Below the pieces are notes generated by a model. That model was given only the letters and a program-made list of their open reading frames with translations. It did no database searches and was not told where the DNA came from. This document shows positions 1-45,459 of a DNA stretch of 64,000 bases, in pieces; position 1 is the stretch's first letter; each line of letters opens with the position of its first letter. Both the position numbers and the translations under genes were made by a program. This stretch comes from Candidatus Bathyanammoxibius amoris (GTDB lineage Bacteria > Planctomycetota > Brocadiia > Brocadiales > Bathyanammoxibiaceae), in NCBI GenBank assembly GCA_024451685.1, contig JAMXCW010000006.1, positions 5,218-69,217 of the forward strand, read 5' to 3'.

Positions 1-765
1 TATATAACTATGCTATCCCGGGCATTAGAATTTATCGGCGTGGACACACCCTTGCACCAGATACGCCACCGGTTCAATGAGTATACAGACGCACGCAAGA
101 AAGAGGGAATCTCAGACCACACCATGAACGTAACGCTAGGCCTCCTCAAACGGATGCTGGCCTATGGGGTACAAACTAACCTCATACCCTTTAACCCTAT
201 GGCCGATGTCCCAAAGCTTAAGGAACGGAAACGATTGCGGCGTGCTCTGAGGCCCGAGGAGATAAAGGCCCTGCTCAAACACTCCGGGAAATGGCGCCAG
301 ATATGGCTGACATTCATACTAACTGGCCTCCGTCGCTCAGAACTGGTCAGACTACGGGTCAAACATATAGATAGGAAAGCGTGCACGCTTATTGTAGCCG
401 AGTCAAAGACTGACGCTGGTGTCAGGGCCGTTCACCTGCACCGGACGCTGCAGAAGGCCTTGTGGCCGCTCCTGAAGAATAAGCGGCCAGAGGACTATGT
501 CTTTACCACTCCCCACGGCACACCCCTCAAGAATAATCTGCTGCGGGCCTTTCGGGTATGCCTCAAACGTGCGGAAATTGACCAGGAAGGCGTGGACCTG
601 CACAGCCTGAGAAAGACCTTTGCCTCTTTACTGGCAAGCGCAGACGCTCATCAAAAGAAAGCCGCCGTGCTTATGGGGCATCGGCGCACAAGCACAACGA
701 CTGATATATACACTGACACTTATCCGGAGGATTTAAGAGAGGCGGTAGAGAAGATACAGCTTTAA
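1..765 (+). CDS. Tyrosine recombinase / phage-type integrase; the 5' end lies outside the window
   Basis: The frame is open to position 1. The catalytic signature appears in order: LTGLRRSEL (Arg), HSLRKTFAS (His-x-x-Arg), LMGHRRTSTTTDIYTD (His ... Tyr nucleophile). Confidence 0.85.
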   Translation, partial: YITMLSRALEFIGVDTPLHQIRHRFNEYTDARKKEGISDHTMNVTLGLLKRMLAYGVQTNLIPFNPMADVPKLKERKRLRRALRPEEIKALLKHSGKWRQIWLTFILTGLRRSELVRLRVKHIDRKACTLIVAESKTDAGVRAVHLHRTLQKALWPLLKNKRPEDYVFTTPHGTPLKNNLLRAFRVCLKRAEIDQEGVDLHSLRKTFASLLASADAHQKKAAVLMGHRRTSTTTDIYTDTYPEDLREAVEKIQL

Positions 766-12472: not shown

Positions 12473-13423
12473 ATGCGTAAGGTAACGACAATACTGCTAT
12501 TAACGGCCATAAGCATGTTCATGTGCAGTCCGTCCGTCCATGCCAAGCATGACATTACCAAAGACGACGCCATAGAACATTTCAACAAGGGCAATAAATT
12601 CTACAGCGCCGGCAAATATGACAATGCAATCGTAGAGTTCAACAAGGCCCTTGAACACAACGCCAATGACGCCTCTTCACTTTTTGGCCTGGGCAACTCC
12701 TACTTTCTCAAGAAGAATTACAAAAAGGCACTGGAGCACTACAATAAAGTGACCGCAATAAAACCAGACTACGCCAAAGTGCATTACGCCATGGGCCTGG
12801 CCCACCGAAGGCTGGGCAATAAGGATGAGGCGAAGAAGGAGTTTGAGAATTACAACACCTTAAGCAAGGGAGGAAAATCCCGCACGGCAAAAAAGGCAGG
12901 CAAGAAAGTCCGTCGTAAGGCAACCCGGGCCAAAGAAGAGGAGACGGAGGAAAGCAGGCAGCTTGAAGGCAGGAAATGGGAAAAGAAGCCTGCGGACAGG
13001 AAACTTGAAAGCAGGAAATGGGAGGACAAGCCTGCGGGCAGAAAACTTGAATCCAGGGCTTGGGACAAAAAACCGGGAGACAGACAACTGGAAAGCAGGG
13101 CGTGGACGGAAGATGGCTCTCGCACATCAAAGGATGGAGCGGAAAAGGAACGCCGTGACAAAAAGATAGCAGAAAAGGAAAGAAAAAGGATAGAGAAAGC
13201 GGCCGAAAAGCGATTTAAAAGGAAGGCCGCCAAAAAAGAGAAGTCTAAAAAAGAGGCGGCCAAGAAAAAGAAGGAAAAAAGGGGGGGTCTGAAAGCCATA
13301 TGGAACAGCTCACCTGTAGGCAAGATATTTGTGGGCCTCGTCGCATACACGCTTGTGGCACAGGTCTGGATAGCCCTCGTCGTACTGGTCTGCTTAATCT
13401 TCCTATGGAGGAGACGGCGGTAA
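12473..13423 (+). CDS. TPR-repeat protein with an internal 14-aa tandem repeat, a Lys-rich region and a C-terminal membrane anchor
   Basis: TPR consensus (YDNAIVEFNKALEHNANDASSLFGLGNSYFLKKNYKKALEHYNKV...), a signal-like N-terminus, and a C-terminal hydrophobic helix VGLVAYTLVAQVWIALVVLVCLIFLW. Confidence 0.65.
   Translation: MRKVTTILLLTAISMFMCSPSVHAKHDITKDDAIEHFNKGNKFYSAGKYDNAIVEFNKALEHNANDASSLFGLGNSYFLKKNYKKALEHYNKVTAIKPDYAKVHYAMGLAHRRLGNKDEAKKEFENYNTLSKGGKSRTAKKAGKKVRRKATRAKEEETEESRQLEGRKWEKKPADRKLESRKWEDKPAGRKLESRAWDKKPGDRQLESRAWTEDGSRTSKDGAEKERRDKKIAEKERKRIEKAAEKRFKRKAAKKEKSKKEAAKKKKEKRGGLKAIWNSSPVGKIFVGLVAYTLVAQVWIALVVLVCLIFLWRRRR
12959..13108 (+). repeat. About 3.5 tandem copies of a 42-nt (14-aa) coding repeat
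   Basis: QLEGRKWEKKPADR / KLESRKWEDKPAGR / KLESRAWDKKPGDR / QLESRAWTEDG. Confidence 0.8.
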
Positions 13424-13586
13424 CCATAAGCATGCGAAACGATAGGTGCCCGCCAAGCCGTCCGGCATCCTTTTAATGCCATAAAATCCCACAGAATATG
13501 GTATTATAACAAAGCAACGAAATGACCCGATTACAAAAGCGCCGTAAGGCCATGGACACAAATTGTGGACATAAAGGAGCGGTGAT

Positions 13587-13808
13587 ATGGCAGAGGTAAC
13601 CATATACGGGAAGGATGACTGTCCTTACACAACTGGCGCAAGAGACGACTACGCCGGGCGCGGCTTTTCCGTAAACTATATAAACGTAAAAGAGGAACCG
13701 CAGGCGATGAGCCGGATGTTGGAGCTTTCCTCTGGCCGAAGGGAGGTGCCGGTCATCGTGGAAGGAGAGAAGGTAACCGTCGGTTTTGGGGGCACCTGAG
13801 GGGTCTAG
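13587..13808 (+). CDS. Glutaredoxin/NrdH-like protein, candidate selenoprotein (TGA 13797-13799 read as Sec; ends ...GFGGT-U-G-V-stop)
   Basis: Thioredoxin-fold landmarks VTIYGKDDCPYT and VPVIVEGEKVTVGF. The in-frame TGA is followed by GGG GTC TAG, and a SECIS-like hairpin starts 15 nt after the TGA. Confidence 0.6.
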
Positions 13809-13814
13809 AGACCC

Positions 13815-13833
13815 TGCCGGTAGGTTACCGGCA
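13815..13833 (+). promoter_or_regulatory. Candidate bacterial SECIS hairpin
   Basis: Perfect 8-bp stem TGCCGGTA / TACCGGCA with a GGT apex, placed 15 nt after TGA 13797-13799. Confidence 0.45.
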
Positions 13834-13898
13834 ACTGGAGGCATTGGGGCCCGCCAAAGACAGTATTTACCAGACACGGCGGGGGAGGGAAACGATAC

Positions 13899-15101
13899 AT
13901 GAAAGAAGAAGTTGCCCCGGTACGGGAGGCCGCCGGGAGACCCGCAGAAAAATTCCAACTGCGGCTTTTATTCTGGGAAACAACCGCCGCATGTAACCTT
14001 GAGTGCATCCACTGCCGCAGGCTGGACGTCATGAAGGAATTGGCCAAGGACGACCTCAGCACCGAGGAGGCGTTCTCTTTTATAGACAACCTGGCAACCC
14101 TGGGCAGCCCGATACTGGTCCTGAGTGGCGGAGAACCCCTCTACCGTCCCGACATCTTCGAAATAGGCCGCTACGCGAGGTCCAGGGGTCTCAAGCTGGC
14201 CCTTGCGACCAACGGCACACTGGTTGATGAGCCCATTGCAAGGCAGATTGTAGACGCCGGGGTGCAGCGTGTAGCCATCAGCTTTGACGGCGCGGACGCA
14301 AAGACACATGACGAATTCCGAAAACTCCCCGGCTCGTTTGACCGGGCCACCGAGGGCTTTAAACACCTCAAAAAGCTCGGCATGAGCATGCAGGTAAACT
14401 CCACCATCGCAAAGCACAACGTCCACCAGCTCAGGGACATCTATAACCTGGCCGTCTCGCTTGGCGCAGACGCGCTTCATATATTTATGCTGGTGCCCGT
14501 GGGCTGTGGAGTAGAGATTGCCGAAGACATGATGCTGAGCGCCGAAAAGTATGAAGAAAGCCTGCACCTGTTCTACGACCTGGCAAGGGAGGCGAAGATT
14601 CAGACAAAGGCCACCTGTGCGCCACACTATTTCAGGATCGTAAGGGAGAAGGCGGCGGAGCTGGGGATGCCCAACGACCCTTCTATGACACCTGGGGGCA
14701 GACACTCAGGCGGTGGACACCCGGGAGGGCATCCGGGCGGTGGACACCCAGGTGGTGGACATCCCGGCAGCGCGCCGGGGGCAATGGCAGCCATAACCAG
14801 GGGGTGTCTTGCGGGAACCGGCGTATGTTTTGTGTCGCACAAGGGGGAGGTTTTCCCCTGCGGGTATCTCCCCGTCACCTCAGGCAACGTGCGCACAGAG
14901 AACCTTGTGGATATTTGGCACAACTCAAAGGTCTTCGCCCGGATGCGCAACGTGGACCTGCTCGGTGGAAAATGCGGGGCCTGCGAATATAAAAAGATAT
15001 GTGAGGGCTGCCGCGCGAGGGCGTTCTATGAGACCGGAGATTATATGGCAGAGGAACCTTATTGCATATACACCCCAAAGGCCCTGAGAAAGAAAGGTTA
15101 A
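13899..15101 (+). CDS. Radical SAM / SPASM-domain enzyme (AhbD/NirJ/PqqE-like)
   Basis: CNLECIHC (CxxxCxxC) after LLFWETTAACN. The C-terminal auxiliary-cluster Cys pattern is GKCGACEYKKICEGCRARA. It carries an unusual (G-G-G-H-P)n insert between the two domains. Confidence 0.8.
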   Translation: MKEEVAPVREAAGRPAEKFQLRLLFWETTAACNLECIHCRRLDVMKELAKDDLSTEEAFSFIDNLATLGSPILVLSGGEPLYRPDIFEIGRYARSRGLKLALATNGTLVDEPIARQIVDAGVQRVAISFDGADAKTHDEFRKLPGSFDRATEGFKHLKKLGMSMQVNSTIAKHNVHQLRDIYNLAVSLGADALHIFMLVPVGCGVEIAEDMMLSAEKYEESLHLFYDLAREAKIQTKATCAPHYFRIVREKAAELGMPNDPSMTPGGRHSGGGHPGGHPGGGHPGGGHPGSAPGAMAAITRGCLAGTGVCFVSHKGEVFPCGYLPVTSGNVRTENLVDIWHNSKVFARMRNVDLLGGKCGACEYKKICEGCRARAFYETGDYMAEEPYCIYTPKALRKKG

Positions 15102-15239
15102 TCAAAAGAAGGGGGTCCGCATGAGGGGTTGTGTCCCGGTTACCCTTCCACTACTCCTGCTGCTTTCACAGAAACCGGCCATGGCGGGGAGAGAGATTTT
15201 TTTCAATCTATCATCTATCCAAGACAAGGTGGAAATATA

Positions 15240-16247
15240 TTGCAAAAGACAGCCGCGCTGAGACGTTACAGGGACAATGCGCTTAAGACCGGTTATGTCT
15301 TCTTCAATGCCAAGGCCCTTATGACGGCAGCCAAGTTGGACATATTCAATCACATCGGTACGGGCAGTAAATCGCCGGATGAACTGGCAAGCTCCATGGG
15401 CGCCAGCAGCCACGGGACCAGGCTCCTTCTGGATGCCCTGGCCGGCATGGGTTACGTTAACAAAAAAGGGGGGCGCTACTCTAACACCCGCTGTGGCCGG
15501 GAGGTGTTCCTTGAGGGAAAAGATTACTATATCGGGGACATACTCCGCTTTCACGAGACCATGTGGGCGGGCTGGAGCGGCCTGGAGAAATCCATCCGAA
15601 CCGGAAGACCCGCGCAACGGCACGACATGTTTCAGGAAGACAAGGAGGAAACCCGTACGTTCATCATGGCCATGCACAACACCGCAATGGGCCACGCAGA
15701 GGATTTGGCCTCTCTCATGGACCTGAACGGGGCCAGAACACTCCTCGACGTAGGCGGCGGTCCCGGCACCTACTCTATATTCTTCTGTAAGGCCAACCCG
15801 CGGCTGAAGGCAACTATTTTTGACCTGCCCGGCACCCTGGAGGTAACGAAGGACGTTGTTTCCAGATACAAAATGTCCCGCAGGGTCACCCTGCAGGAAG
15901 GCGATTACAATGAGCAACTGCCAAAGGGCTTTGACACGGCATTCCTTTCCCATATCATCCACAGTGAAGGGCCGGAGGCCAATGCCGCTCTAATGAAGAG
16001 GATTTATGACACCCTGAACCCCGGTGGGAAGATAATAATCCAGGATTTTATATTAAAAGAGGATAAGACTCAACCCGGTTTTGCCTCTACCTTCGCCCTC
16101 TGTATGCTCGTTTTCACGGAGGAAGGCAGGACGTACTCTTTCGAAGAGATAAAGGCCTGGCTGAAGGACGCGGGTTTTAAGTCTGTTAAGTGGTCTCGAC
16201 GTTCGCTGCCCCGTGACATCTCCGTCGTAACGGCGCAGCGCAGCTAA
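15240..16247 (+). CDS. Family-2 O-methyltransferase (dimerisation domain plus class I SAM fold)
   Basis: LLDVGGGPGTYSI motif I; an N-terminal winged-helix/dimerisation-like region. The ORF is open from TTG 15129, but TTG 15240 has an AAGGTGGA Shine-Dalgarno at 7-nt spacing. Confidence 0.7.
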   Translation: MQKTAALRRYRDNALKTGYVFFNAKALMTAAKLDIFNHIGTGSKSPDELASSMGASSHGTRLLLDALAGMGYVNKKGGRYSNTRCGREVFLEGKDYYIGDILRFHETMWAGWSGLEKSIRTGRPAQRHDMFQEDKEETRTFIMAMHNTAMGHAEDLASLMDLNGARTLLDVGGGPGTYSIFFCKANPRLKATIFDLPGTLEVTKDVVSRYKMSRRVTLQEGDYNEQLPKGFDTAFLSHIIHSEGPEANAALMKRIYDTLNPGGKIIIQDFILKEDKTQPGFASTFALCMLVFTEEGRTYSFEEIKAWLKDAGFKSVKWSRRSLPRDISVVTAQRS

Positions 16248-16280
16248 AGCCATCTAATAAACAAAGAAAAGGGAATCAAC

Positions 16281-17144
16281 ATGATAAAAAGTATCCTTGC
16301 ACCACTTGACGGGTCTGAGGCGTCATTTTCCGCCCTTGCAAACGCCGTTGCGCTGGGGAAGGCTGCCGGGGCCGAGGTGCGCGGCCTTTTTGTGGTGGAC
16401 AAGTGGCGTTTCGTTTACGTCCCCACCTCGACGGCCATCGCCGGGGCAATAGGCGCGGCGCCGACCACCAACGTACCGCTGCCTCCTGAAGAGCTGGTTG
16501 AGGAAGAAAACCGTGCCGCGCTGGAGGAAAAAGGGATTAAGAATTGCTTTGACACCGAGTGCAAGGCCCAGGGCGTTAAAGGCACGTTTAAGGTGGTTCG
16601 TGGCGAGGTGGGTGAGCTGATAATCGAGGCGGCCAGGACGGTGGACCTGGTGGTTATCGGCCGTCGCGGTAAACACACCCGGAAGCCCGAGGCGCACACC
16701 CCCGGCTCGATAACCCTGGCCCTGCTCCACAAATCTGCGAGACCGGTCATGGTAGTGCCCGAGGGCACCCGGCGTGGCACACACATACTCGTCGCATACG
16801 ACGGCAGCGAGGCCTCTCAACGGGCCATAGAGGCCGGGGCAATGATCGCCGAGCTGCAGGCCTCAAAGACTATAGACGTCCTTACCGTAGTCGACAACCC
16901 GGAGGATGCGGCCGAACCCCAGCGGGAGGCCGGAGAATACCTGACTCCGCACGGGCTTAAGGCGTCCTTTTTCATGGAGTCCGGAAGGCCATGGGAGGCC
17001 ATCTCGGCACACGCAGGTAAGACAGACGCCGGGCTTATCGTGATGGGCGCCTTTGGGATGAACCGCATCAAGGAGTTGATTTTTGGAAGCACTACCCTGA
17101 ACGTACTCGAGAATGCGAAATGTCCCATTCTGCTCGTGGCGTAA
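16281..17144 (+). CDS. Tandem-domain universal stress protein (UspA family)
   Basis: Two Usp modules, each ending in G-x2-G-x9-G-S type motifs (VIGRRGKH..., VMGAFGMNRIKELIFGSTT). Confidence 0.75.
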   Translation: MIKSILAPLDGSEASFSALANAVALGKAAGAEVRGLFVVDKWRFVYVPTSTAIAGAIGAAPTTNVPLPPEELVEEENRAALEEKGIKNCFDTECKAQGVKGTFKVVRGEVGELIIEAARTVDLVVIGRRGKHTRKPEAHTPGSITLALLHKSARPVMVVPEGTRRGTHILVAYDGSEASQRAIEAGAMIAELQASKTIDVLTVVDNPEDAAEPQREAGEYLTPHGLKASFFMESGRPWEAISAHAGKTDAGLIVMGAFGMNRIKELIFGSTTLNVLENAKCPILLVA

Positions 17145-17198
17145 CTGCCGCAGCCGCTATACACCTAAGTTACATACACCGTCCATCTTATGAAAGCC

Positions 17199-17227
17199 TT
17201 GACACAAACAACGTAAACTGTTTTAAT
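17199..17227 (+). promoter_or_regulatory. Sigma70-like promoter TTGACA-N17-TTTAAT
   Basis: Read directly from the sequence, 60 nt upstream of ATG 17288. Confidence 0.35.
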
Positions 17228-17287
17228 TCTTGCTTCAAAAGCTTTAAGTCATAAATCCAGACAATCACCAGACACCGGGATTTCTTA

Positions 17288-18772
17288 ATGAACATACTAC
17301 TTCTAAGTATGCCGGATTCTTTTCCCTTCCTGTTGCAGTGGGGCGTAAAGGTCCCATGCCTCGGCCTGACATCGATCGCCACCAACCTCTCTGAAGGCCA
17401 CAACGTTTATGTGGGAGACCTGTGCACTAAGAGAGACGACGTGCCGGGGGCCGTCAGGGACGCAATAGAGGAGTATAAACCCCATCTTGTGGGGATTTCC
17501 TCAATGACCTTCCAGTACAACACCGCCAAGAAGATAGCACGGCTCATAAAGGGCATGAATAAGGACATAAAACTGGCCCTGGGCGGCTACCATGCCACAC
17601 TCATGTCCCCGGAACTCAAGACCGAAGATGACAGCAAGTTATTCGATTTCTCCGGCGAGGACGGCCGGCTGTTCGACTTCGTGGTAAGGGGTGAGGGAGA
17701 GGTCAACTTCCGTGAGCTTGTAGACGCCATGGACGGGGGGAACAAGGACTTTAATTCCATCATGGGGCTGTCATACAGGTCCAACGGCGAGTGGCACCAT
17801 AACGCCCAAAGACCCCTTCTGGACGTAAAGACCATAAAATTGGCCAAAAGGTCAACGAGGATATGGAATGACTACAGCTACTGGGGCTACAACTTTGACA
17901 CCACTGAGAGTTCCAGGGGCTGCACCTTTACCTGCAACTTCTGCAGCATGCAACACATGTACGGCACCTCATTCAGGACCTTTGACATCTCAAGGGTGAT
18001 GGAGGACCTTGAAGACGTCAAGAGCGTGAAGGGCAATATCGTCCTGTTTATAGACGACAACATCACCCTGAACCCGAAAAGATTTTTGGAAATCTGCGAG
18101 GCGATGATTAAGGAAAAACATAATGACATTTACTACTGGGCGCAGGTGAGCTCCAAGGGTATCGCCTCCGTGCCGGAACTCTCAAAGGCCATGAAGGCCG
18201 CCGGTTTTAAGATGGTCTTCCTGGGGATAGAGAACGTCTCAAAGCGCAACCTTGAGCAGCTCAACAAGGGAGACATATTAGAATACAGCAAGAAGGCCAT
18301 AAAATACCTCCATGACGCCGGGTTAATCGTAATCGGCGGGATGATCGTCGGCAACCCTGAGGACACAGTCGCGGACCTTGAGGAGAACTTCGAATTCTTT
18401 AAAGACCAGGGCATAGACGTATACTTCGACCAGATACTGACCCCGTACCCTAAGACAGGGATAAGGGAAGAACTCATGAAGGCCGGCCTTGTCACAAATC
18501 CTTACGATTTCACGAAATATAACGGATATTGGACCAATGTAAGGACAAAACACCTCTCGGAAGACGAGCTCTCCTTTCTCAGATGGAAGTTGCACCGCGA
18601 CTACTTCGTGCTCGCCAGTCCCTCACCCCTGTACAGAAAATATATGGGAGCAGGCTACTACTACAGGAACTACAAAATCTTCAGAAAGAGGCTGGGCGCC
18701 TGGTGGAACACAGAACGGAAGGTTTACGAGCAGGAGATGGAGAAATACCGGAAGGTAAACGAATTTTTGTAG
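17288..18772 (+). CDS. B12-binding-domain radical SAM protein (class B), paralog 1
   Basis: N-terminal cobalamin-binding-like Rossmann segment (HLVGISSMTFQYNTAKKIARLIK), then ESSRGCTFTCNFCS (CxxxCxxC). Confidence 0.8.
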   Translation: MNILLLSMPDSFPFLLQWGVKVPCLGLTSIATNLSEGHNVYVGDLCTKRDDVPGAVRDAIEEYKPHLVGISSMTFQYNTAKKIARLIKGMNKDIKLALGGYHATLMSPELKTEDDSKLFDFSGEDGRLFDFVVRGEGEVNFRELVDAMDGGNKDFNSIMGLSYRSNGEWHHNAQRPLLDVKTIKLAKRSTRIWNDYSYWGYNFDTTESSRGCTFTCNFCSMQHMYGTSFRTFDISRVMEDLEDVKSVKGNIVLFIDDNITLNPKRFLEICEAMIKEKHNDIYYWAQVSSKGIASVPELSKAMKAAGFKMVFLGIENVSKRNLEQLNKGDILEYSKKAIKYLHDAGLIVIGGMIVGNPEDTVADLEENFEFFKDQGIDVYFDQILTPYPKTGIREELMKAGLVTNPYDFTKYNGYWTNVRTKHLSEDELSFLRWKLHRDYFVLASPSPLYRKYMGAGYYYRNYKIFRKRLGAWWNTERKVYEQEMEKYRKVNEFL

Positions 18773-18858
18773 TTGGCCATCTGGGGAAACATTCGCGCAA
18801 ATACCAACAAAACGATACATCTCAAAATTGAAAGACTTTACTTGAGGACCGAGACATC

Positions 18859-20343
18859 ATGAATGTACTCCTTCTAAGTATGCCGGACTTTATCCCGCTT
18901 ATATTCAGAAAGAATATAAAGGTACCCAACCTCGGCATGACGTCGGTGGCCTCCAACGTTTCTGAAGGCCACAACGTCTACGTGGGAGACCTCTGCACCA
19001 GAAGAGACGACATACCCGGGGCCGTCCGTGACGCAATAGATAAGTATAAACCTGACCTTGTGGGCCTGTCATCAATGACCTTTCAGTACATCACCGCCAA
19101 GAAGATTGCGCGCCTCGTAAGGGGTATGAACAAGGACATCAAACTGGCCCTGGGCGGCTACCACGCCTCGCTCATGTCCCCGGAAACCAGAAGCGATGAC
19201 GACAGTAAACTATTCGACTTCTCCGGCGAGGACGGCCGACTATTCGACTTCATGATAAGGGGCGAGGGTGAAGAAACCTTCCGCGAGCTGATAGACACCC
19301 TGGACGGGGGGCGCAAGGACTTTGATTCCATCCTGGGGTTGTCGTTCAGGAGTAACGGCGAGTGGCGCCACAACGACCGAAGGCCCCTTCTCGACGTAAG
19401 GGCCATAAAACCGCCAGACAGATCGAAGAGGATATGGAAGGACTACAATGCTTTTTTCCACAAATTTGATGTCGTCGAGAGCTCAAGGGGCTGCACCTTT
19501 ACCTGCAACTTCTGCAGCATACACCACATGTACGGTACCACCTTCAGGACCTACGACATCTCCAGGGTGATAGAAGACCTCGAAGACATCCGGAAGGCGG
19601 GGGGCAACATGGTGGGATTCATAGACGACAACATTACCCTGAACCCGAAAAGGTTTACGGAACTCTGCCGGGCAATAACCAGAGAAGGCTATAACGACAT
19701 GAACTACTGGGCCCAGGTAAGCTGCAAGGGTATCGCCTCCACGCCCGAACTCTCAAAGGCCATGCGTGACGCAGGATTCATGGTTGTCTTCCTGGGTATA
19801 GAGAGCGCCTCAAAGCGCACCCTGGAGCGGCTCAACAAGGGAGACATATTAGAATACAGCAAGAAAGCCATAAAATACCTCCATGACGCCAATATATTAA
19901 TAATCGGTGGGATGATCGTCGGAAACCCTGACGATACATGCGAGGATGTCAGGGAAAACTACGAGTTCTTCAGGGAATACGGCGTAGATGCCTACCTGGA
20001 CCAGATGCTGACCCCATACCCCAAAACGGGGATAAGGAAAGAACTTATGGATGCCGGCCTCGTGACAAACCCCTACGATTTCGCAAAATACAACGGATTC
20101 TGGGTCAATGTCAGGACAAAACACATCCCGGCAGATGAGCTCTCCTTTCTCAGATGGAAGCTCCACCGTGAATTTTTCCTGATGGCGGAACCATCACCCA
20201 TATACCGGAAACTGATGGGCCCGGGCTATTACTACAGGAAGTATAAGATCTTCAGGAAGAAGCTGGATGTCTGGTGGAAGACGGAAAGGAAGGCATACGA
20301 AGAGGACATGGAGAAGTTCCGCAAGGTAAACGAATACCTGTAG
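18859..20343 (+). CDS. B12-binding-domain radical SAM protein (class B), paralog 2
   Basis: Same length (494 aa) and collinear with 17288-18772, with roughly three quarters of residues identical by eye and the same ESSRGCTFTCNFCS motif. Confidence 0.8.
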   Translation: MNVLLLSMPDFIPLIFRKNIKVPNLGMTSVASNVSEGHNVYVGDLCTRRDDIPGAVRDAIDKYKPDLVGLSSMTFQYITAKKIARLVRGMNKDIKLALGGYHASLMSPETRSDDDSKLFDFSGEDGRLFDFMIRGEGEETFRELIDTLDGGRKDFDSILGLSFRSNGEWRHNDRRPLLDVRAIKPPDRSKRIWKDYNAFFHKFDVVESSRGCTFTCNFCSIHHMYGTTFRTYDISRVIEDLEDIRKAGGNMVGFIDDNITLNPKRFTELCRAITREGYNDMNYWAQVSCKGIASTPELSKAMRDAGFMVVFLGIESASKRTLERLNKGDILEYSKKAIKYLHDANILIIGGMIVGNPDDTCEDVRENYEFFREYGVDAYLDQMLTPYPKTGIRKELMDAGLVTNPYDFAKYNGFWVNVRTKHIPADELSFLRWKLHREFFLMAEPSPIYRKLMGPGYYYRKYKIFRKKLDVWWKTERKAYEEDMEKFRKVNEYL

Positions 20344-20356
20344 CCCCCATGCCTTT

Positions 20357-22111
20357 TTAATTGACTGTCTCTACCTCGCACTCACACTCAAGCGCAAGGG
20401 CCTGGGATATCCGGCTCTTATCCCTGTAGATGGTTATCCCCTTGCATCTGCTCTCGTAGGCAAGCATAAACGTCTTTTCCACCTCCTTCTTTGACGTGGC
20501 GGAAGAGAAATTTATGGTCTTCGATACCGCATTGTCCGTGTACTTCTGAAACGCCGCCTGCATCCTGACGTGCCACTCCGCGGGGATGTCCCTGGCGGTC
20601 ACAAAGACCCGTTTTGTCCCGTCGGGTATGTAAGGGATAGACTGGATGGAACCCTCTTTTGAGATTTCTTCCATAAGCCTGTCGGAGTAAAACCCCTCCC
20701 GGTGCGCCGTCTCAACAAACAAATCGTAGACCTCAGGGATAAACTCCTCGTCCAGGATGCGCCTGCCGAAGGAAAAGGCGAATATCGGCTCTATACCGCT
20801 GGAGCAACCGGCTATGATGCTGATGGTGCCGGTCGGGGCGATAGTGGTGCGGGAGACGTTTCTGTAGCGGGGCCCGCCCGCTTTATCGTATATACTCCGC
20901 GAGAAGTTGGGGAATACACCCCGCTTTTCCGCCCGCTCGATTGACGCGGCGTTGGCCTCACCGGAGAAGAACTTCATCAACTCCTCAGCCGCACCAAGGG
21001 CCTCTTCAGAATCATAAGGAATGCCCATCTTCACCAGCATGTCGGCAAAGCCCATGACACCAAGCCCTATCTTCCTGTTGCCCTTGCTCATCTCCTCAAC
21101 CTGCGGCAGCGGATACTTATTTACGTCTATGACGTTGTCAAGGAAGTACAGCCCCCATCTTATAACTTCCCTGAGCCTGTCCCAGTCAACTCCGGGTCTT
21201 TTACCGTCACCGTCCTTCAACATCCCGGAGAGATTCACCGAACCCAGCACGCAGGACTCGTACGGCAGGAGCGGTTGCTCGCCGCACGGGTTTGTGCTCT
21301 CTATTGCGCCCAGCTCAGGGGTAGGGTTAGAGGCGTTTATGGTATCAAGGAAGAGTATCCCCGGCTCGCCCGTCTTCCACGCCTCCTCCACAAGCCTGTC
21401 AAAGACCTCTCTGGCCCTGAGCTTCTTCACCGTCTTCCCCGTGCGGGGATTAATGAGCCCATATTCCCCGTCATCCTCCACCGCCTTCATGAAGGCATCC
21501 GTCACACCCACAGAGACGTTGAAGTTGGTAAGGACTCCCTGACGGTTCTTACAATCTATGAATTCCAGTATGTCGGGGTGTGTAACGTGGAGGACGGCCA
21601 TGTTGGCGCCCCGGCGGAATCCGCCCTGGTTAATGACCTCCGTGGCCTCGTTGAATATCCTGATAAAGGAGACCGGGCCGCTGGCGGGCCCCCCTGAGGT
21701 GCTGACTATATCATTCTTCGGCCTGAGTCTGGAAAAGGAAAACCCCGTCCCCCCTCCGCTCTGGTGGATGAGGGCGGAAAACTTTACCATGTCGAATATA
21801 TGCTCGATAGAATCCTCCACGGGCAGCACAAAACACGCCGCCAACTGCTGGAGCCTCCTGCCGGCGTTCATAAGCGTGGGCGAGTTGGGCAGGAACTCGA
21901 GCCTCGACATCATACCGTAAAAGGCCGCTTCAGCCTCCCGGGGGTCCTCCCCGTAAAGGGCGTTCGCGCCGGCCGCATTGCGGGCCACCCGCCTGAACAT
22001 CTCCTCCGGAGACTCTATACAGCGGCCCTGCCCGTCCTTCCTCAGGTACCTCTTCTTTAGTATCAGCAGACCTGTTGGAGATAGTTCTATTTTCTCGGAC
22101 TTTTTTCCCAT
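20357..22111 (-). CDS. nrdJ: Adenosylcobalamin-dependent (class II) ribonucleotide reductase
   Basis: Active-site TNPCGEQPL, N-terminal LKKRYLRKD, single-chain size of about 585 aa. The ORF is open to TTG 22129; ATG 22111 (MGKKSEK...) is the preferred start. Confidence 0.85.
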   Translation of the reverse strand: MGKKSEKIELSPTGLLILKKRYLRKDGQGRCIESPEEMFRRVARNAAGANALYGEDPREAEAAFYGMMSRLEFLPNSPTLMNAGRRLQQLAACFVLPVEDSIEHIFDMVKFSALIHQSGGGTGFSFSRLRPKNDIVSTSGGPASGPVSFIRIFNEATEVINQGGFRRGANMAVLHVTHPDILEFIDCKNRQGVLTNFNVSVGVTDAFMKAVEDDGEYGLINPRTGKTVKKLRAREVFDRLVEEAWKTGEPGILFLDTINASNPTPELGAIESTNPCGEQPLLPYESCVLGSVNLSGMLKDGDGKRPGVDWDRLREVIRWGLYFLDNVIDVNKYPLPQVEEMSKGNRKIGLGVMGFADMLVKMGIPYDSEEALGAAEELMKFFSGEANAASIERAEKRGVFPNFSRSIYDKAGGPRYRNVSRTTIAPTGTISIIAGCSSGIEPIFAFSFGRRILDEEFIPEVYDLFVETAHREGFYSDRLMEEISKEGSIQSIPYIPDGTKRVFVTARDIPAEWHVRMQAAFQKYTDNAVSKTINFSSATSKKEVEKTFMLAYESRCKGITIYRDKSRISQALALECECEVETVN

Positions 22112-22290
22112 AACACGATTCTCACACAACCCTCAACTACATAGTGTAGCGATGCCGGATATAAATGTCTATATGTTGTATGCTTGAAAATGCAACGGAC
22201 AAAGACACGAGGGTTTTCCAAGGAAGACGTCGCTCTATCTGAGAAATGATAAGGAGAGGTAAGGGTAAGGTGGGTTCTCAAGTAAAGAGG

Positions 22291-27451: not shown

Positions 27452-29932
27452 TTATCGAGATGCGATCTCAGCGACCACAGCCCTCGTGGAATCTTCCGCC
27501 CGCCGCCTCTCCGGTGCCAAAAACGTCGCGACAAGAAAACGGCCCGTGTGGTACGCAGTGGAGTAACGCCCGTTTTTGTCCTCAAAGCACTGAAGCTTGC
27601 CCTCGAGCAAGGGGCTTTCACCCCAGGAACTTCTCAGTTTAACGAAGTTCTTCCACGCCTGGCGAGCACTCTCCGTGTTGGGGTACTCTGCAACCATGAG
27701 CTTCATCGTGGGCAGGTCCTTCCCGGACTCATATTCCGCAACTACAGCATCGGTCTCGCCGTCCAGGCCAAAGACGTTCTCTTCTATAACCTCGTCACTT
27801 ATATAGATGTTGTCAAGAATTATACTGCTGTGAAAGAACTTAGTTCGCCCCTGAAGCAACCCCTCACCCGGTAAATAGTCCAAAAGCGCAGGCCGTGCGG
27901 ACTCGCCGTGGGGCAACCTCTCAAGGATCGCCACGGCAATATGAACCACCTGCTCCAGATCCACGTCGCTTGAGCCGGGTTCAAGACGGATATAGTGCCT
28001 GCCCTTCCACACCCAGACGTAATTCTCGAACACAGTACCCTCGTCCCCAAGGTAGTACCTCTCTCCCGACCTGTCGTAGCTATACGCCCCGAACGCGTCA
28101 TCGCTTGAGCCAAACGTCCACAACTCAACCAGCACCTCCCTGCCCTCCGGGTCTCCATAACGTGTCACACTCACCTCCCGGTAAGAATACGTGCGGTAGG
28201 GCTCGGCCGCGCCGTCTATATACTCATAAAGGCCGTCTTCCCCTGCATACACACTGGCCTCTGAAAGCATCTTCCATCCACCTATCACCCGCGGAAATAA
28301 ACCCTCCGCCGCCGAGGCAACCGGCATCTCAAATCTTACGGCTAACTGCGGCTGCATACCTTCAACAACGATGGCCGCCTTGCCCACAACGGGACAGGCA
28401 TACTCGCAGAAACCACACCCGTTGCAAACCTCTTCCCTCACGAACGGCCGCATTATCTCACGGCCCTCCCCGTCAGTGTACGTATTAAAATGAATCGCCT
28501 TGGAGGGTACCGGACATACCTCTTCACACACGCCGCAGTTAACGTCGTGCCAGTCCTTCTTGAGGGCGGGCAGTCCCGCATAACCCACCCAGGGTATGCA
28601 GCGACTCCAGTCTATACGCGCCTTGCCTATGGCCGTCTTCTGCTTCTCCGGCAGCTCCAGCGGTTCTATGGCGCCCGAGGGACACACGTGGCTGCACAGG
28701 GTACAGGTATACTCACAGTGCCCTATCCTGGGTATCAGCCTGGGCGTCCACGCCGCCTCCAGACCGGCCTCCATCAGCGTGGGATGCAGTCCGTTCGTCT
28801 TGCACACCTTCATGCACTCCCCGCAACTGACACACCTTGCCAGAAATTCCTCCTCACCCACAGAGCCGGGCGGGCGGATGACCCCGTGTCCCTTGCCGGA
28901 CCTCCAGGGGAAATTGAACCCCAGCATCGGTACGGCGGCAATACCGGCAAAACAGGCTGTAACCAGACCCCTCTTTGAGAGGTCCACCTCACGGAGCTGG
29001 GGGACACCACCGCCCCTGAATCGTATTGCATCGCTGGGGCATACCTCCTGACAGTCCATGCAGAGTATGCATTCCCCCGCCTGAGTGGCCCTTCCTTCCT
29101 CTGTTATACACCCCATCCTGCATCCCTTTTCACACAGACCGCATACCTCACAGTCCTCCCGCACCCTCCTCTGCCAGTGGGCCCCCACAGACGCCAGCGC
29201 CAGCAACGCACCCATCGGACAGAGGTTCCTGCACCAGTACCGTCTGAAGACCAGCCCGAAAGAAACAATGGCCAGGAAAATGACCAGGAAGGCCGAATGG
29301 TTGCGGAAGAAGGGTTCGCGTTCCACAAAAAGCATTTTATCTGAAAGCTCGTGCGCGGGCGCGGCCAATGCGCCCACGACAGGCAGTCCATACATAAAAT
29401 CGAAGATACCCGAGGAAAGCGCCACAACGTATGGATGGACCAGGACGGAATAGACGTTCGTCGCCAGGCTCAGCGGGTCAAACCATCCCACTATCTGCCT
29501 GCTCAGAAAGAGGCTGAGCAGGAGGAAGGCCAGCAGATAATATTTAAGCCGCTTGCCGTTATAGGGCGTCCACCCAGCCTTAGGCTCATCAGTCCGCGAC
29601 CCCTTAAAAATCTTGTCCGTGAGGTCTATCGTGGTGCCGAACGGGCAGACCCACCCGCAGAAGAACCGCCCCATAACCAGGGTCATGGCAATAAGTACCA
29701 GCGCGGGCCAGTACTGGGTTACGAGCTCCCCGGCGGCTACGCTCACCCCCAGGCCGGAGAGGGGACTGAGGCGCAGGAATATATTCCCGTCGGAAAAATC
29801 GGCAGAGGTCAGCGGGTCCAGATATATTAAGAGTATTAGAAACACCGCGAGACTGAGGGCCTGTGACCACTTCCGCAGTTTATACGCCCGGAAAGGTTTC
29901 TTTTTTTCCTGTGACATTTGTCCTACCAGCAT
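27452..29932 (-). CDS. Membrane polyferredoxin (NapH/MauN-like N-terminal half with about six CxxCxxCxxxC motifs) fused to a ~300-aa uncharacterised C-terminal domain
   Basis: FCGWVCPFGT; CEVCGLCEKGC, CILCMDCQEVC, CVSCGECMKVC, CTLCSHVCP, CGVCEEVCP, CNGCGFCEYACP; several TM helices. I cannot assign the C-terminal ~300 aa to a family. Confidence 0.7.
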   Translation of the reverse strand: MLVGQMSQEKKKPFRAYKLRKWSQALSLAVFLILLIYLDPLTSADFSDGNIFLRLSPLSGLGVSVAAGELVTQYWPALVLIAMTLVMGRFFCGWVCPFGTTIDLTDKIFKGSRTDEPKAGWTPYNGKRLKYYLLAFLLLSLFLSRQIVGWFDPLSLATNVYSVLVHPYVVALSSGIFDFMYGLPVVGALAAPAHELSDKMLFVEREPFFRNHSAFLVIFLAIVSFGLVFRRYWCRNLCPMGALLALASVGAHWQRRVREDCEVCGLCEKGCRMGCITEEGRATQAGECILCMDCQEVCPSDAIRFRGGGVPQLREVDLSKRGLVTACFAGIAAVPMLGFNFPWRSGKGHGVIRPPGSVGEEEFLARCVSCGECMKVCKTNGLHPTLMEAGLEAAWTPRLIPRIGHCEYTCTLCSHVCPSGAIEPLELPEKQKTAIGKARIDWSRCIPWVGYAGLPALKKDWHDVNCGVCEEVCPVPSKAIHFNTYTDGEGREIMRPFVREEVCNGCGFCEYACPVVGKAAIVVEGMQPQLAVRFEMPVASAAEGLFPRVIGGWKMLSEASVYAGEDGLYEYIDGAAEPYRTYSYREVSVTRYGDPEGREVLVELWTFGSSDDAFGAYSYDRSGERYYLGDEGTVFENYVWVWKGRHYIRLEPGSSDVDLEQVVHIAVAILERLPHGESARPALLDYLPGEGLLQGRTKFFHSSIILDNIYISDEVIEENVFGLDGETDAVVAEYESGKDLPTMKLMVAEYPNTESARQAWKNFVKLRSSWGESPLLEGKLQCFEDKNGRYSTAYHTGRFLVATFLAPERRRAEDSTRAVVAEIASR

Positions 29933-30201
29933 ATCACCTTATCGGAGTCAAAGATGAGCTTAATCATCTCATCATAATCAATCGAAGGATACGGCAACTC
30001 TACGGCCCGGGCCGCGGCGTCGTCCTTTAACACCATAGTCTTCAGCCCTTTAAGGCGGTCTTCCGCGGTCAACACCGCGTCATGTATGAGTAACACGGCC
30101 AGATGACCGTCCCCTGCCGCGGAGTTTTTGCCGGCCTGGTCAACGGCCGTCGAGATGGCAAGCGCGTGGTCCTTTTCTTTGATTACGTGGAGCGTCTTCA
30201 T
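29923..30201 (-). CDS. DsrH/TusB-like protein
   Basis: 92 aa, ending ...SDKVICW, third in a DsrE/F/H-sized trio. It overlaps the polyferredoxin start by 10 nt. Confidence 0.55.
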   Translation of the reverse strand: MKTLHVIKEKDHALAISTAVDQAGKNSAAGDGHLAVLLIHDAVLTAEDRLKGLKTMVLKDDAAARAVELPYPSIDYDEMIKLIFDSDKVICW

Positions 30202-30202
30202 G

Positions 30203-30553
30203 TTATTGCCAGGGTATTACCCTGTCCGCGTTCGCAAGCATTTCTATTACCCGTTCACCGGGTAATATCTCAGCCTCTGCACCTAATTCGTTGATACCCC
30301 TTTTCTCAAGAGATTCCTTCTCCGCCACCACCCTGTGCCCGAGGAGCCGCAGGGCGTCCAGATGTTTATATATTATTCCCGACTCTATCAGCCCGGGGTC
30401 TGTCCTGCGGAGCAGGTGCACGCCGTCGCCCATGAACAAGACCGTTACCTTATTGTCTTCCTCCAGGGTAAGGCCCACCGACATGCGAAGCCCCTCCGAA
30501 TTTCTGAGCGTGTTGAACGGGGGCCTATGTATTATAACGACCACGTCTGCCAT
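30203..30553 (-). CDS. DsrF/TusC-like protein
   Basis: DsrE-family fold landmarks (VVVIIHRPPFNTLRNSEGLRMSVGL, VLFMGDGV). There is a 1-nt gap to the dsrH-like start. The ORF is open to TTG 30577. Confidence 0.55.
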   Translation of the reverse strand: MADVVVIIHRPPFNTLRNSEGLRMSVGLTLEEDNKVTVLFMGDGVHLLRRTDPGLIESGIIYKHLDALRLLGHRVVAEKESLEKRGINELGAEAEILPGERVIEMLANADRVIPWQ

Positions 30554-30618
30554 AAGATTTTGCCGTCTAAAGAACAATTGTGTATCGAGTGGGGGGGGCT
30601 GCCGGATTGCTCCTGAAA

Positions 30619-30927
30619 CTAGTTAAAGGATAGAAAGCGGTCAGAGTCTTTTACCAGGGAAGCCAGGTCGTACTGGCTGCCCCAATGCACAAAGTCCTTC
30701 CTCTCCACCTTGCGCTCCACGGCGTTATGGGCGCATACCACCACCCTTACCCCCCTTGCCGAGAGTTCGGCCAGCCGGGAGTCCTCCAGGTGGTACACTC
30801 CGTCGCACATAAGGAACATCTCCACCGCAATCCCCGCCTTCAGGGCCGCCTCTGCCAGCCGTACCACCGTATGGGTGTTCTCACTCTCCGGGCTGGTGGT
30901 TAGAAGAATGCCCAACTTTTTATTCAT
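30619..30927 (-). CDS. DsrE/TusD-like protein with a conserved Cys
   Basis: LGILLTTSPESENTHTVVRLAEAALKAG, FLMCDGV, and VVVCAHNAVERKV (Cys at the position of the DsrE/TusD active-site Cys). Confidence 0.6.
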   Translation of the reverse strand: MNKKLGILLTTSPESENTHTVVRLAEAALKAGIAVEMFLMCDGVYHLEDSRLAELSARGVRVVVCAHNAVERKVERKDFVHWGSQYDLASLVKDSDRFLSFN

Positions 30928-45425: not shown

Positions 45426-45459
45426 TTCAGCGTTAACCCTTATAAATAACGAATGCTAT

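What the first reader, a model, noticed from the sequence alone, without database searches (positions are those of the whole stretch)
13587..13833. Glutaredoxin-like ORF with an in-frame TGA, a U-x-x-stop ending and a SECIS-like hairpin: candidate selenoprotein truncated by the ORF track
The 70-aa ORF has a glutaredoxin/NrdH layout: VTIYGKDDCPYT, with a single Cys where CPYC is usual, and VPVIVEGEKVTVGF. It stops at TGA 13797-13799. Reading through gives GGG GTC TAG, so the protein would end ...GFGGT-Sec-Gly-Val-stop. Fifteen nt after the TGA lies a perfect 8-bp hairpin, TGCCGGTA-GGT-TACCGGCA (13815-13833), with G/U in the apex. Its position and shape are those expected of a bacterial SECIS. 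A C-terminal Sec could form a selenenylsulfide with the lone N-terminal Cys. From memory there is an annotation family named Uxx-star glutaredoxin-like (seleno)protein with exactly this third-from-last Sec. I cannot verify that here.
Basis: partly seen in the sequence, partly recalled or inferred. Interest (0 to 1): 0.75.

Follow-up and report, generated by a model that had tools for sequence, protein, structure and literature searches.

The report
Known UXX-star glutaredoxin-like selenoprotein gene
The small glutaredoxin-like gene does carry a selenocysteine codon three codons before its true end, followed by the RNA hairpin that such codons need, but it belongs to a selenoprotein family that is already catalogued, so it is a correct call and not a discovery.

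Summary
The ORF 13587-13799 ends at TGA, then reads GGG GTC TAG. A perfect 8-bp hairpin with a GGT loop lies at 13815-13833.

Read through with Cys in place of Sec, the 73-aa product matches NCBIfam NF041114, "UXX-star selenoprotein family 1". It scores 119.3 bits against a cutoff of 72 and covers the whole 70-position profile.

- **TGA column:** all 79 homologous genomic loci have TGA at this position.
- **Tail length:** 68 of the 79 have exactly two more codons and then a real stop.
- **Tail codons:** they are mostly Gly and Val and use all four synonymous codons of each, so they are translated.
- **Hairpin:** 74 of 78 distinct loci have one at the matching distance. The first loop base is always G, and all eight stem pairs covary.
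- **Cys homologue:** an all-cysteine family member ends in GT-C-GV.

This member has Cys (CPYT) at the N-terminal active site, where most relatives have a second Sec. The family has been in the literature since 2008 and in NCBIfam.

Two points remain open. The 64-kb window holds no selA, selB, selD or tRNA-Sec, so the decoding machinery could not be checked. The Cys12-Sec71 selenenylsulfide is an inference. Novelty: already known. Interest: low.

The parts
13574..13579 (+). Shine-Dalgarno-like AAGGAG, 7 nt before the ATG
   Evidence: Read directly from the sequence.
13587..13808 (+). Full coding sequence of the selenoprotein: 73 codons (Met1...Thr70-Sec71-Gly72-Val73) plus the TAG stop. The ORF track and the public annotation end it at 13799.
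   Evidence: NF041114 scores 119.3 bits (cutoff 72) over profile positions 1-70 of 70 when read through, and 110.2 bits over 1-67 when truncated. The identical 70-aa product P0001 is in NCBI as 'glutaredoxin family protein'.
13620..13631 (+). Active-site motif Cys12-Pro-Tyr-Thr (TGT CCT TAC ACA). Most relatives have TGA (Sec) at the Cys position.
   Evidence: 62 of 79 loci have TGA here and 17 have TGT or TGC. C12, P13, Y14 and T15 are invariant in alignment A3. The window has no hairpin after this codon, unlike the Sec forms.
13797..13799 (+). UGA read as selenocysteine (Sec71), third codon from the end
   Evidence: TGA in 79 of 79 homologous loci. It aligns with Cys in the all-Cys family member P0130, which ends ...GTCGV.
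13800..13808 (+). Gly72 (GGG), Val73 (GTC) and the true stop TAG
   Evidence: Across 63 distinct tails, Gly occurs in 51 and uses all 4 Gly codons, and Val occurs in 56 and uses all 4 Val codons. The final stop varies: TGA 34, TAA 20, TAG 9.
13815..13833 (+). Bacterial SECIS hairpin: 8-bp stem TGCCGGTA/TACCGGCA and apical loop GGT (13823-13825). It lies in the 3' untranslated region, 23 nt separate the UGA from the loop.
   Evidence: 100% complementary arms. Folding energy -11.6 kcal/mol, z = -3.5. It meets all four constraints of the published bSECIS model quoted in PMC13188914. A hairpin at the equivalent place occurs in 74 of 78 loci, with covariation in 8 of 8 pairs and an invariant first loop G.
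13801..13814 (+). Small hairpin GGGTC-TAGA-GACCC around the true stop. Its role is uncertain and it may be chance.
   Evidence: Folding energy -6.6 kcal/mol, z = -1.4. It is absent from the closest relatives.

Best explanation
This is a selenoprotein gene of the UXX-star family 1, a minimal glutaredoxin-fold protein of 73 residues.

How decoding most likely works (inferred from established bacterial Sec decoding): the ribosome reaches UGA at 13797-13799. The hairpin 13815-13833 then sits just outside the mRNA entry channel and presents its G-G-U loop to SelB carrying Sec-tRNA(Sec). Sec is inserted, Gly and Val follow, and translation ends at UAG 13806-13808.

What the product looks like: a beta-alpha-beta-alpha-beta-beta thioredoxin-type core with no C-terminal helix. 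It has one nucleophile at the N-terminus of helix 1 (Cys12 in CPYT) and a second on a short Gly-Gly-hinged tail (Sec71).

How it most likely acts (inferred): Cys12 and Sec71 form a reversible selenenylsulfide. The protein would then work as a small thiol/selenol oxidoreductase, or as a carrier of a soft-metal or metalloid ligand. The tail would act like the Gly-Cys-Sec-Gly tail of thioredoxin reductase.

Shown here: family membership, the conserved UGA-X-X-stop ending, translation of the two trailing codons, the conserved and covarying SECIS-type hairpin, and the glutaredoxin fold. Inferred: actual Sec insertion in this organism, the Cys12-Sec71 bond, and the substrate.
For: - Family: NF041114 scores 119.3 bits (cutoff 72) over the full profile, and NF041212 scores 103 bits (cutoff 66). 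Pfam Glutaredoxin scores 33.8 bits (cutoff 22.9).
- Relatives at about 80% identity in Candidatus Brocadiales are named 'UXX-star selenoprotein family 1' by NCBI.
- TGA is present at this column in 79 of 79 loci from many phyla, and 68 of 79 then have exactly two codons and a stop.
- The tail codons are Gly in 51 of 63 and Val in 56 of 63 distinct tails, each with all four synonymous codons, while the final stop varies. That is the signature of translated sequence.
- All 120 listed database homologues end at ...GG[T/A] (110 of them ...GFGGT), the same truncation point.
- Hairpin: present in 74 of 78 loci. The loop starts 19-26 nt from the T of TGA in 72 of the 74 (27 and 32 in the other two). 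A strong hairpin occurs in 81% of loci against 9.6% of shuffles.
- Covariation: 8 of 8 pairs show double changes, with 151 double-changed cells against 45 +/- 7 in shuffles. The covariation score is 0.953 against 0.256 (0 of 500 shuffles reach it) and 0.08-0.22 for the slid controls. The first loop base G is invariant.
- Inside the Brocadiales clade the tail is U-G-V, U-H-V or U-S-V. The stem changes by G-C to A-U and G.U steps.
- The hairpin meets the published bSECIS constraints: loop of 3-9 nt, stem of 4-16 bp, G in the first two loop positions, 16-37 nt from the UGA, and energy <= -7.5 kcal/mol (PMC13188914).
- A Sec/Cys pair exists: P0130 ends in GT-C-GV and scores 108 bits to NF041114.
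- Internal control: homologues with TGA at the N-terminal site carry their own hairpin at the same spacing, and the window's Cys form does not.
- Fold: AlphaFold2 mean pLDDT 91, with the lowest confidence in the tail. Foldseek matches glutaredoxin 3ic4, NrdH 1h75 and Clostridium oremlandii cGrx1/cGrx2 at TM about 0.8.
- No terminator-like site follows the gene.
Against: - No selA, selB, selD, tRNA-Sec or second selenoprotein gene is in the 64-kb window. The rest of the genome could not be searched, so decoding capacity in this organism is unproven.
- The apical loop starts 26 nt from the T of TGA, against a family mode of 21 nt.
- The loop-anchored alignment used for the pair counts contained only loci in which my script had already found a stem of at least 5 bp. 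The percentage paired is therefore partly by construction.
- RNAalifold on the plain MAFFT alignment predicted no structure.
- No conserved neighbour across the family points to a substrate.
Confidence: 0.88

Rival explanations
1. In this organism the TGA is a plain stop. The product is the 70-aa truncated glutaredoxin-like protein, as in the public annotation, and the GV-stop tail and hairpin are relics of a selenoprotein ancestor in a lineage that lost Sec decoding.
For: No Sec machinery or other selenoprotein gene is seen in the window. The identical protein is deposited as a 70-aa 'glutaredoxin family protein'. Fossil hairpins do persist after Sec-to-Cys change at the N-terminal site in some relatives.
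Against: Five diverged Brocadiales relatives (74-82% protein identity) all keep TGA, two codons, a stop and a hairpin whose stem changes by compensatory steps, which indicates continuing selection. Lineages that abandon Sec normally replace TGA with TGC or TGT, as P0130 did, and do not keep a truncating stop. Absence from 64 kb says little about a genome of several Mb.
Confidence: 0.07
2. The hairpin 13815-13833 is a transcription terminator, attenuator or mRNA-stability element between this gene and the downstream radical SAM gene, and is unrelated to recoding.
For: It lies in the 90-nt intergenic space before the next gene, which starts at 13899.
Against: No T-run follows it, and the terminator scan finds nothing on the + strand. 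Its distance from the TGA is conserved across phyla whatever the downstream gene is. The invariant G at the first loop position fits SelB binding and not termination.
Confidence: 0.02
3. The gene is a selenoprotein as described, but it does not cycle as an oxidoreductase. Cys12 and Sec71 instead act as a two-ligand clamp for a soft metal or metalloid such as As(III) or Hg(II), in detoxification or trafficking.
For: [quoted passage not shown] A related subgroup with an internal insert sits beside ACR3, ArsR, CcdA and cation-efflux genes in 12 loci.
Against: The family-1 loci without the insert, including this one, show no such neighbours. Here the neighbours are TilS, a TPR protein and an AhbD-like radical SAM enzyme. 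The fold and the CPYT motif are those of thiol oxidoreductases.
Confidence: 0.2

Closest known systems
UXX-star selenoprotein family 1 (NCBIfam NF041114), listed as 'Distant Grx-like protein 1' in the review PMC13188914, which cites Zhang & Gladyshev 2008
   Same: The HMM match is full-length and above the cutoff. The protein has the glutaredoxin fold, a U/C-P-Y-T motif, Sec third from the end, and a SECIS hairpin after the UGA.
   Different: The review lists the family with two Sec residues (a UxxT motif plus the C-terminal U). This member has Cys at the N-terminal site and therefore one Sec, as do 17 of 79 loci and the 119 of 120 listed database proteins that contain CPYT.
UXX-star (seleno)protein families 2 and 3 and the HUGP/GUXX-star fusion (NF041211, NF047338, NF045501; the review cites Haft & Tolstoy 2025 for family 2 and the fusion)
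   Same: They share the glutaredoxin-like core and the Sec-X-X-stop ending.
   Different: Scores of 62.0, 62.0 and 61.9 bits fall below the cutoffs of 100, 97 and 325, so this protein is not a member of those families.
Thioredoxin reductase C-terminal Gly-Cys-Sec-Gly tail (mammalian TrxR)
   Same: Works alike (own knowledge and inference): Sec sits on a short flexible C-terminal tail and shuttles redox equivalents to and from a buried redox centre. With Sec so close to the stop, any bacterial SECIS must lie after the stop codon. That arrangement works in E. coli with engineered TrxR constructs.
   Different: The fold is unrelated (flavoprotein versus a 73-aa glutaredoxin fold). In TrxR the selenenylsulfide partner is the adjacent Cys in the tail. 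Here the only Cys is at position 12.
Selenoprotein glutaredoxin of Clostridium oremlandii (cGrx1, UxxC) and classical CPYC glutaredoxins / NrdH
   Same: Same fold (Foldseek TM about 0.8 to 7c10, 4tr0, 1h75 and 3ic4). The Pfam Glutaredoxin domain is present.
   Different: Sec is at the C-terminus and not in the CxxC motif. The motif is CPYT and not CPYC or CVQC. The C-terminal helix is missing. The equivalog cutoffs are not reached: GRX_bact 39 bits against 90, NrdH 29.3 against 131.

Membership tests
[quoted passage not shown] | Score at or above the curated HMM cutoff, over the full length | tested here: met
   119.3 bits against a cutoff of 72, profile positions 1-70 of 70.
[quoted passage not shown] | In-frame TGA (Sec) as the third-from-last codon, followed by two sense codons and a true stop | tested here: met
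   TGA 13797-13799, GGG, GTC, TAG. The same layout occurs in 68 of 79 homologous loci.
[quoted passage not shown] | N-terminal U/C-x-x-T redox motif on a glutaredoxin fold | tested here: met
   CPYT at residues 12-15, with Cys and not Sec. AlphaFold2 pLDDT 91 and glutaredoxin/NrdH structural matches.
[quoted passage not shown] | Bacterial SECIS element after the Sec-UGA (loop 3-9 nt, stem 4-16 bp, G in the first two loop positions, 16-37 nt from the UGA, energy <= -7.5 kcal/mol) | tested here: met
   3-nt loop GGU, 8-bp stem, 23 nt from the UGA, -11.6 kcal/mol. The criteria come from PMC13188914. The hairpin is conserved and covaries in homologues.
[quoted passage not shown] | Cys-containing homologue aligned at the Sec column | tested here: met
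   P0130 ends ...GTCGV and scores 108 bits to NF041114. Such forms are rare: none among the 79 loci or the 120 nearest proteins.
Any bacterial selenoprotein | The genome encodes selA, selB, selD and tRNA-Sec | not testable with these tools
   None is in the 64-kb window.
Any bacterial selenoprotein | Selenium is actually incorporated at the UGA | not testable with these tools
   This needs 75Se labelling or mass spectrometry.
Classical dithiol glutaredoxin (TIGR02181 GRX_bact) | CPYC dithiol motif and a score above the equivalog cutoff | tested here: not met
   The motif is CPYT. The score is 39 bits against a cutoff of 90. The C-terminal helix is absent.
NrdH-redoxin (NF007657 / TIGR02194) | Score above the cutoff | tested here: not met
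   29.3 bits against 131, and 27.2 against 85.75. NrdH 1h75 is only a fold-level match.

The most novel reading that the evidence does not exclude
In this Brocadiales clade the single-Sec UXX-star protein may be the dedicated redox partner of the gene cluster transcribed just after it. That cluster holds an AhbD-like radical SAM/SPASM enzyme, an O-methyltransferase, a Usp protein and two B12-binding radical SAM enzymes. Alternatively it may partner the nearby ribonucleotide reductase, in the way NrdH does. Either link would give the first physiological role for a UXX-star selenoprotein. The gene order is kept in relatives down to 74% identity. It is not seen outside the order, so shared descent explains it equally well.
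Probability: 0.1. Interest if true: 0.45.

Novelty: already known. Interest (0 to 1): 0.2.

Why it matters
The practical value is a corrected annotation. The public record of the identical protein stops at the UGA and calls it a 70-aa glutaredoxin family protein. The real product is most likely 73 residues with a C-terminal Sec.

The case also shows that a reader working from raw sequence can recognise a C-terminal Sec gene whose SECIS lies beyond the stop codon, which is exactly the kind of gene that ORF finders truncate.

The biochemical role of the UXX-star family is still unknown. A single-Sec member from an anammox-order bacterium, sitting in a conserved radical SAM cluster, is a reasonable candidate for experiments. 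It does not change what is known about selenoproteins.

Tried and rejected
- RNAalifold on a plain MAFFT alignment of 68 tails gave no consensus structure, because the hairpins were out of register. I replaced it with a loop-anchored alignment.
- Folding the whole of 13790-13850 gave an unremarkable z-score of -0.48. Only the hairpin itself stands out.
- Rfam has no matching family, either in the region at a permissive threshold or in the whole window at gathering scores.
- ARAGORN found no tRNA or tRNA-Sec in the window.
- A scan for TGA-interrupted genes found no second selenoprotein gene.
- NCBIfam and Pfam annotation of the window found no sel genes.
Only the 70-aa core was modelled, and no coordinates were available to measure a Cys12-Sec71 distance.
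- Two contig look-ups failed for lack of an exact gene product on record.
- Literature searches for selenoproteins or Sec machinery in anammox bacteria gave nothing usable. The Haft & Tolstoy 2025 paper is not held.
- Neighbourhood clustering of 80 loci found no neighbour conserved across family 1.
- The terminator reading was rejected.

Full report
**Observation**

The ORF 13587..13799 (+) encodes 70 residues: MAEVTIYGKDDCPYTTGARDDYAGRGFSVNYINVKEEPQAMSRMLELSSGRREVPVIVEGEKVTVGFGGT. It has a single Cys at codon 12. AAGGAG lies 7 nt before the ATG. The ORF ends at TGA 13797-13799, and the frame continues GGG GTC TAG. The inverted repeat TGCCGGTA / TACCGGCA (13815-13822 and 13826-13833) is 100% complementary with a 3-nt GGT loop.

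On its own the hairpin folds at -11.6 kcal/mol with z = -3.5. The broader 61-nt stretch is not exceptional, z = -0.48. I applied a rule drawn from the family to both strands of the window: a TGA after at least 50 open codons, followed by a hairpin of at least 6 bp starting 10-20 nt downstream with G early in the loop. It gave three hits. This site scored best, and the other two are antisense to real genes.

**What it is**

With Cys standing in for Sec, the 73-residue read-through product matches NCBIfam NF041114, "UXX-star selenoprotein family 1". It scores 119.3 bits against a cutoff of 72 and covers all 70 profile positions. It also matches the umbrella model NF041212, "Uxx-star family glutaredoxin-like (seleno)protein", at 103 bits against a cutoff of 66. 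Sister families 2 and 3, the HUGP fusion, classical glutaredoxin 3 and NrdH all fall below their cutoffs. Pfam sees a Glutaredoxin domain.

The identical 70-aa protein is in NCBI as [quoted passage not shown]. Relatives at about 80% identity are named "UXX-star selenoprotein family 1". [quoted passage not shown] It credits UXX-star family 2 and the HUGP/GUXX-star fusion to Haft & Tolstoy 2025 (PMC13188914).

**Comparative test of recoding**

A scan of one genome per species returned 80 loci from Planctomycetota, Acidobacteriota, many Desulfobacterota, Nitrospirota, Bacillota and others.

- In all 79 loci that include the 3' end, the codon after GG[T/S/A] is TGA. In 68 of them exactly two codons and a true stop follow.
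- Across 63 distinct tails the first trailing codon is Gly in 51, using GGC, GGG, GGA and GGT. The second is Val in 56, using GTG, GTT, GTC and GTA. The final stop is TGA 34, TAA 20 and TAG 9 times.
- An amino acid that is kept while its third codon position varies is the mark of translated sequence. The invariant TGA set against a freely varying terminal stop is the mark of a recoded codon.
- All 120 listed database homologues end at ...GG[T/A], 110 of them at ...GFGGT.
- A profile search of 1.84 billion representatives found an all-Cys homologue, P0130, that ends in ...GT-C-GV. It scores 108 bits to NF041114. That supplies the classical Sec/Cys pair.
- The same search found the family mistranslated with TGA read as Trp (P0129, P0159: "SWPYT...GGTWGV") or as Gly (P0227). 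It also found 55-residue fragments that start after an N-terminal TGA.

**The hairpin**

In 74 of 78 distinct loci a stem of 5-13 bp (5-9 bp in 73 of them) follows the C-terminal TGA. The loop starts 19-26 nt from the T of TGA in 72 of the 74 (27 and 32 nt in the other two). The mode is 21 and the window is at 26. Loops are GGT, GTT, GGC, GTG and similar. A strong hairpin occurs in 81% of loci against 9.6% of shuffled tails.

I built a loop-anchored alignment of 50 hairpins with 3-nt loops and counted pairs on it:

| Measure | Observed | Control |
|---|---|---|
| First loop base | G in all 50 | - |
| Pairs with changes on both sides | 8 of 8 | - |
| Double-changed cells | 151 | 45 +/- 7 in shuffles |
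| Covariation score | 0.953 | 0.256 in shuffles (0 of 500 reach it) |
| Covariation score, partner slid 1-3 columns | - | 0.08-0.22 |

One caveat applies. These sequences were chosen because a stem of at least 5 bp had already been found, so the percentage paired is partly by construction. The diversity of pair types and the shuffle test do not depend on that choice.

The window's hairpin meets every constraint of the published bacterial SECIS model: a loop of 3-9 nt, a stem of 4-16 bp, G in the first two loop positions, 16-37 nt from the UGA, and energy of -7.5 kcal/mol or lower (PMC13188914). No terminator-like site follows the gene, and Rfam has no matching family.

**Within the source clade**

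Four further Brocadiales relatives (74-82% protein identity) carry U-G-V, U-H-V or U-S-V followed by a stop. Their hairpins are GCCGATA/TATCGGC, GCCGGTA/TATCGGC, GCCGATA/TGTCGGC and CCGATA/TATCGG. These differ from the window's stem (TGCCGGTA/TACCGGCA) by G-C to A-U changes and G.U intermediates. The element therefore appears to be under selection in this lineage.

**One Sec or two**

62 of 79 loci also have TGA in place of the active-site Cys (U-P-Y-T). Those loci carry a second small hairpin, typically (A/G)GGCC-AGGTC-GGCC(T), with its loop again 21 nt from the TGA. The window has TGT there and no hairpin. A few Cys forms still carry the hairpin, apparently as a relic. The window's gene is thus a single-Sec member, whereas the review describes the family as having two Sec residues.

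**Structure and likely mechanism**

AlphaFold2 on the 70-residue core with 49 homologues gives a mean pLDDT of 91. The elements are b1 3-8, a1 13-24, b2 28-33, a2 38-47, b3 56-59 and b4 62-65. There is no C-terminal helix, and confidence is lowest in the tail. Foldseek finds the Archaeoglobus glutaredoxin 3ic4, E. coli NrdH 1h75 and Clostridium oremlandii cGrx1/cGrx2 at TM about 0.8. By sequence the nearest solved structure is NrdH, at E = 6e-5.

The rest of this section is inference from established glutaredoxin structure. The Gly-Gly stretch after b4 lies next to the active site, so Sec71, two residues beyond it, could reach Cys12. The most likely chemistry is a Cys12-Sec71 selenenylsulfide on a flexible tail, analogous to the Gly-Cys-Sec-Gly tail of thioredoxin reductase. 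In two-Sec relatives it would be a diselenide.

Decoding is also inferred. With the ribosome at the UGA, a stem beginning 13-18 nt downstream sits at the mRNA entrance, where SelB can bind its loop. The SECIS lies after the true stop because only two codons remain.

A metal- or metalloid-binding role is the main functional alternative. The review raises it. A subgroup with an internal insert sits beside ACR3, ArsR, CcdA and cation-efflux genes in 12 loci. Family-1 loci without the insert, including this one, have no such neighbours.

**What could not be shown**

The window contains no tRNA, no Rfam family, no selA, selB or selD, and no second TGA-interrupted gene. Six of its 53 long ORFs end in TGA at normal lengths, so TGA is an ordinary stop elsewhere in the window. 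The rest of the genome was out of reach, so Sec-decoding capacity is untested. Literature searches on anammox selenoproteins gave nothing usable.

**Context**

The order TPR protein, UXX-star gene, AhbD-like radical SAM/SPASM, O-methyltransferase, Usp, B12-binding radical SAM genes, and ribonucleotide reductase on the opposite strand is kept in Brocadiales relatives. It is not kept elsewhere, so it gives no firm functional link.

**Verdict**

It is a member of an already described selenoprotein family, truncated at the UGA in its public annotation. Novelty: already known. Interest: low (0.2). Confidence that it is a UXX-star family 1 selenoprotein gene with a functional SECIS: about 0.88.

Noticed in passing
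window 13801-13814: A second small hairpin, GGGTC-TAGA-GACCC, spans the true stop TAG and contains the palindrome TCTAGA. It is weak (-6.6 kcal/mol, z = -1.4) and absent from close relatives. It pushes the SECIS loop 5 nt further from the UGA than the family mode.
   Followed up: partly
window 13899-20343 (+) and 20357-22129 (-): A gene cluster conserved in Brocadiales relatives. It holds an AhbD-like radical SAM/SPASM enzyme (TIGR04545, 452.6 bits, below the cutoff of 500), an O-methyltransferase, a Usp protein, two tandem 494-aa B12-binding radical SAM paralogues, and a ribonucleotide reductase on the opposite strand. Relatives also have a 196-aa gene between the radical SAM enzyme and the methyltransferase, which the window lacks.
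   Followed up: partly
window 14701-14761: A 15-bp tandem repeat (4.3 copies) encodes a Gly-His-Pro-Gly-Gly-rich insert (GGGHPGGHPGGGHPGGGHPG) inside the AhbD-like radical SAM protein. It splits the HMM match into two stretches.
   Followed up: no
window 12473-13423 (+), repeat at 12955-13051: The upstream gene encodes an N-terminal TPR protein with a long Lys/Glu/Arg-rich region and a hydrophobic C-terminus. It contains a 42-bp tandem repeat (2.3 copies, 85% matches). It is conserved next to the selenoprotein gene in Brocadiales relatives.
   Followed up: no
loci L004-L079 (N-terminal active-site codon of the homologues): 62 of 79 homologues have TGA in place of the active-site Cys (U-P-Y-T), with their own in-frame mini-SECIS (typically AGGCC-AGGTC-GGCCT, coding Ala-Arg-Ser-Ala). 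Cys forms L010, L048, L065 and L018 keep that hairpin as an apparent relic.
   Followed up: yes
proteins P0129, P0159, P0227, P0145 (public protein collections): Family members are deposited in mistranslated or truncated forms: TGA read as Trp ('SWPYT...GGTWGV'), TGA read as Gly ('GGTGGV'), or 55-aa fragments that start after the N-terminal TGA.
   Followed up: partly
12 insert-subgroup loci among L001-L080, e.g. L015, L018, L029, L030, L032, L037, L041, L042, L052, L056, L058, L075, L080: A subgroup has C/U-P-F-C or C/U-P-Y-A motifs and an internal insert (GFAGDxSLRGGIPxFGGT). In most of its loci the tail after the Sec codon is longer than two codons (U-P-V-...). It sits beside ACR3-type arsenite efflux, ArsR, CcdA and cation-efflux genes, which hints at a metalloid link for that subgroup.
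   Followed up: partly
window 44481-46080 (+): A likely type II restriction-modification pair: a CcrM-like adenine methyltransferase (252 bits) overlapping a Sau3AI/MutH-like endonuclease gene.
   Followed up: no
window 10-765 (+): A tyrosine recombinase (Xer/integron-integrase-like) lies at the window edge. The 191-kb public scaffold that carries this region ends near window position 835.
   Followed up: no
window 27452-30927 (-): An 826-aa multi-ferredoxin-domain protein is followed by three small DsrE/DsrE/DsrH-like genes. DsrE-like proteins are a known selenoprotein family elsewhere, but these genes have no in-frame TGA.
   Followed up: no
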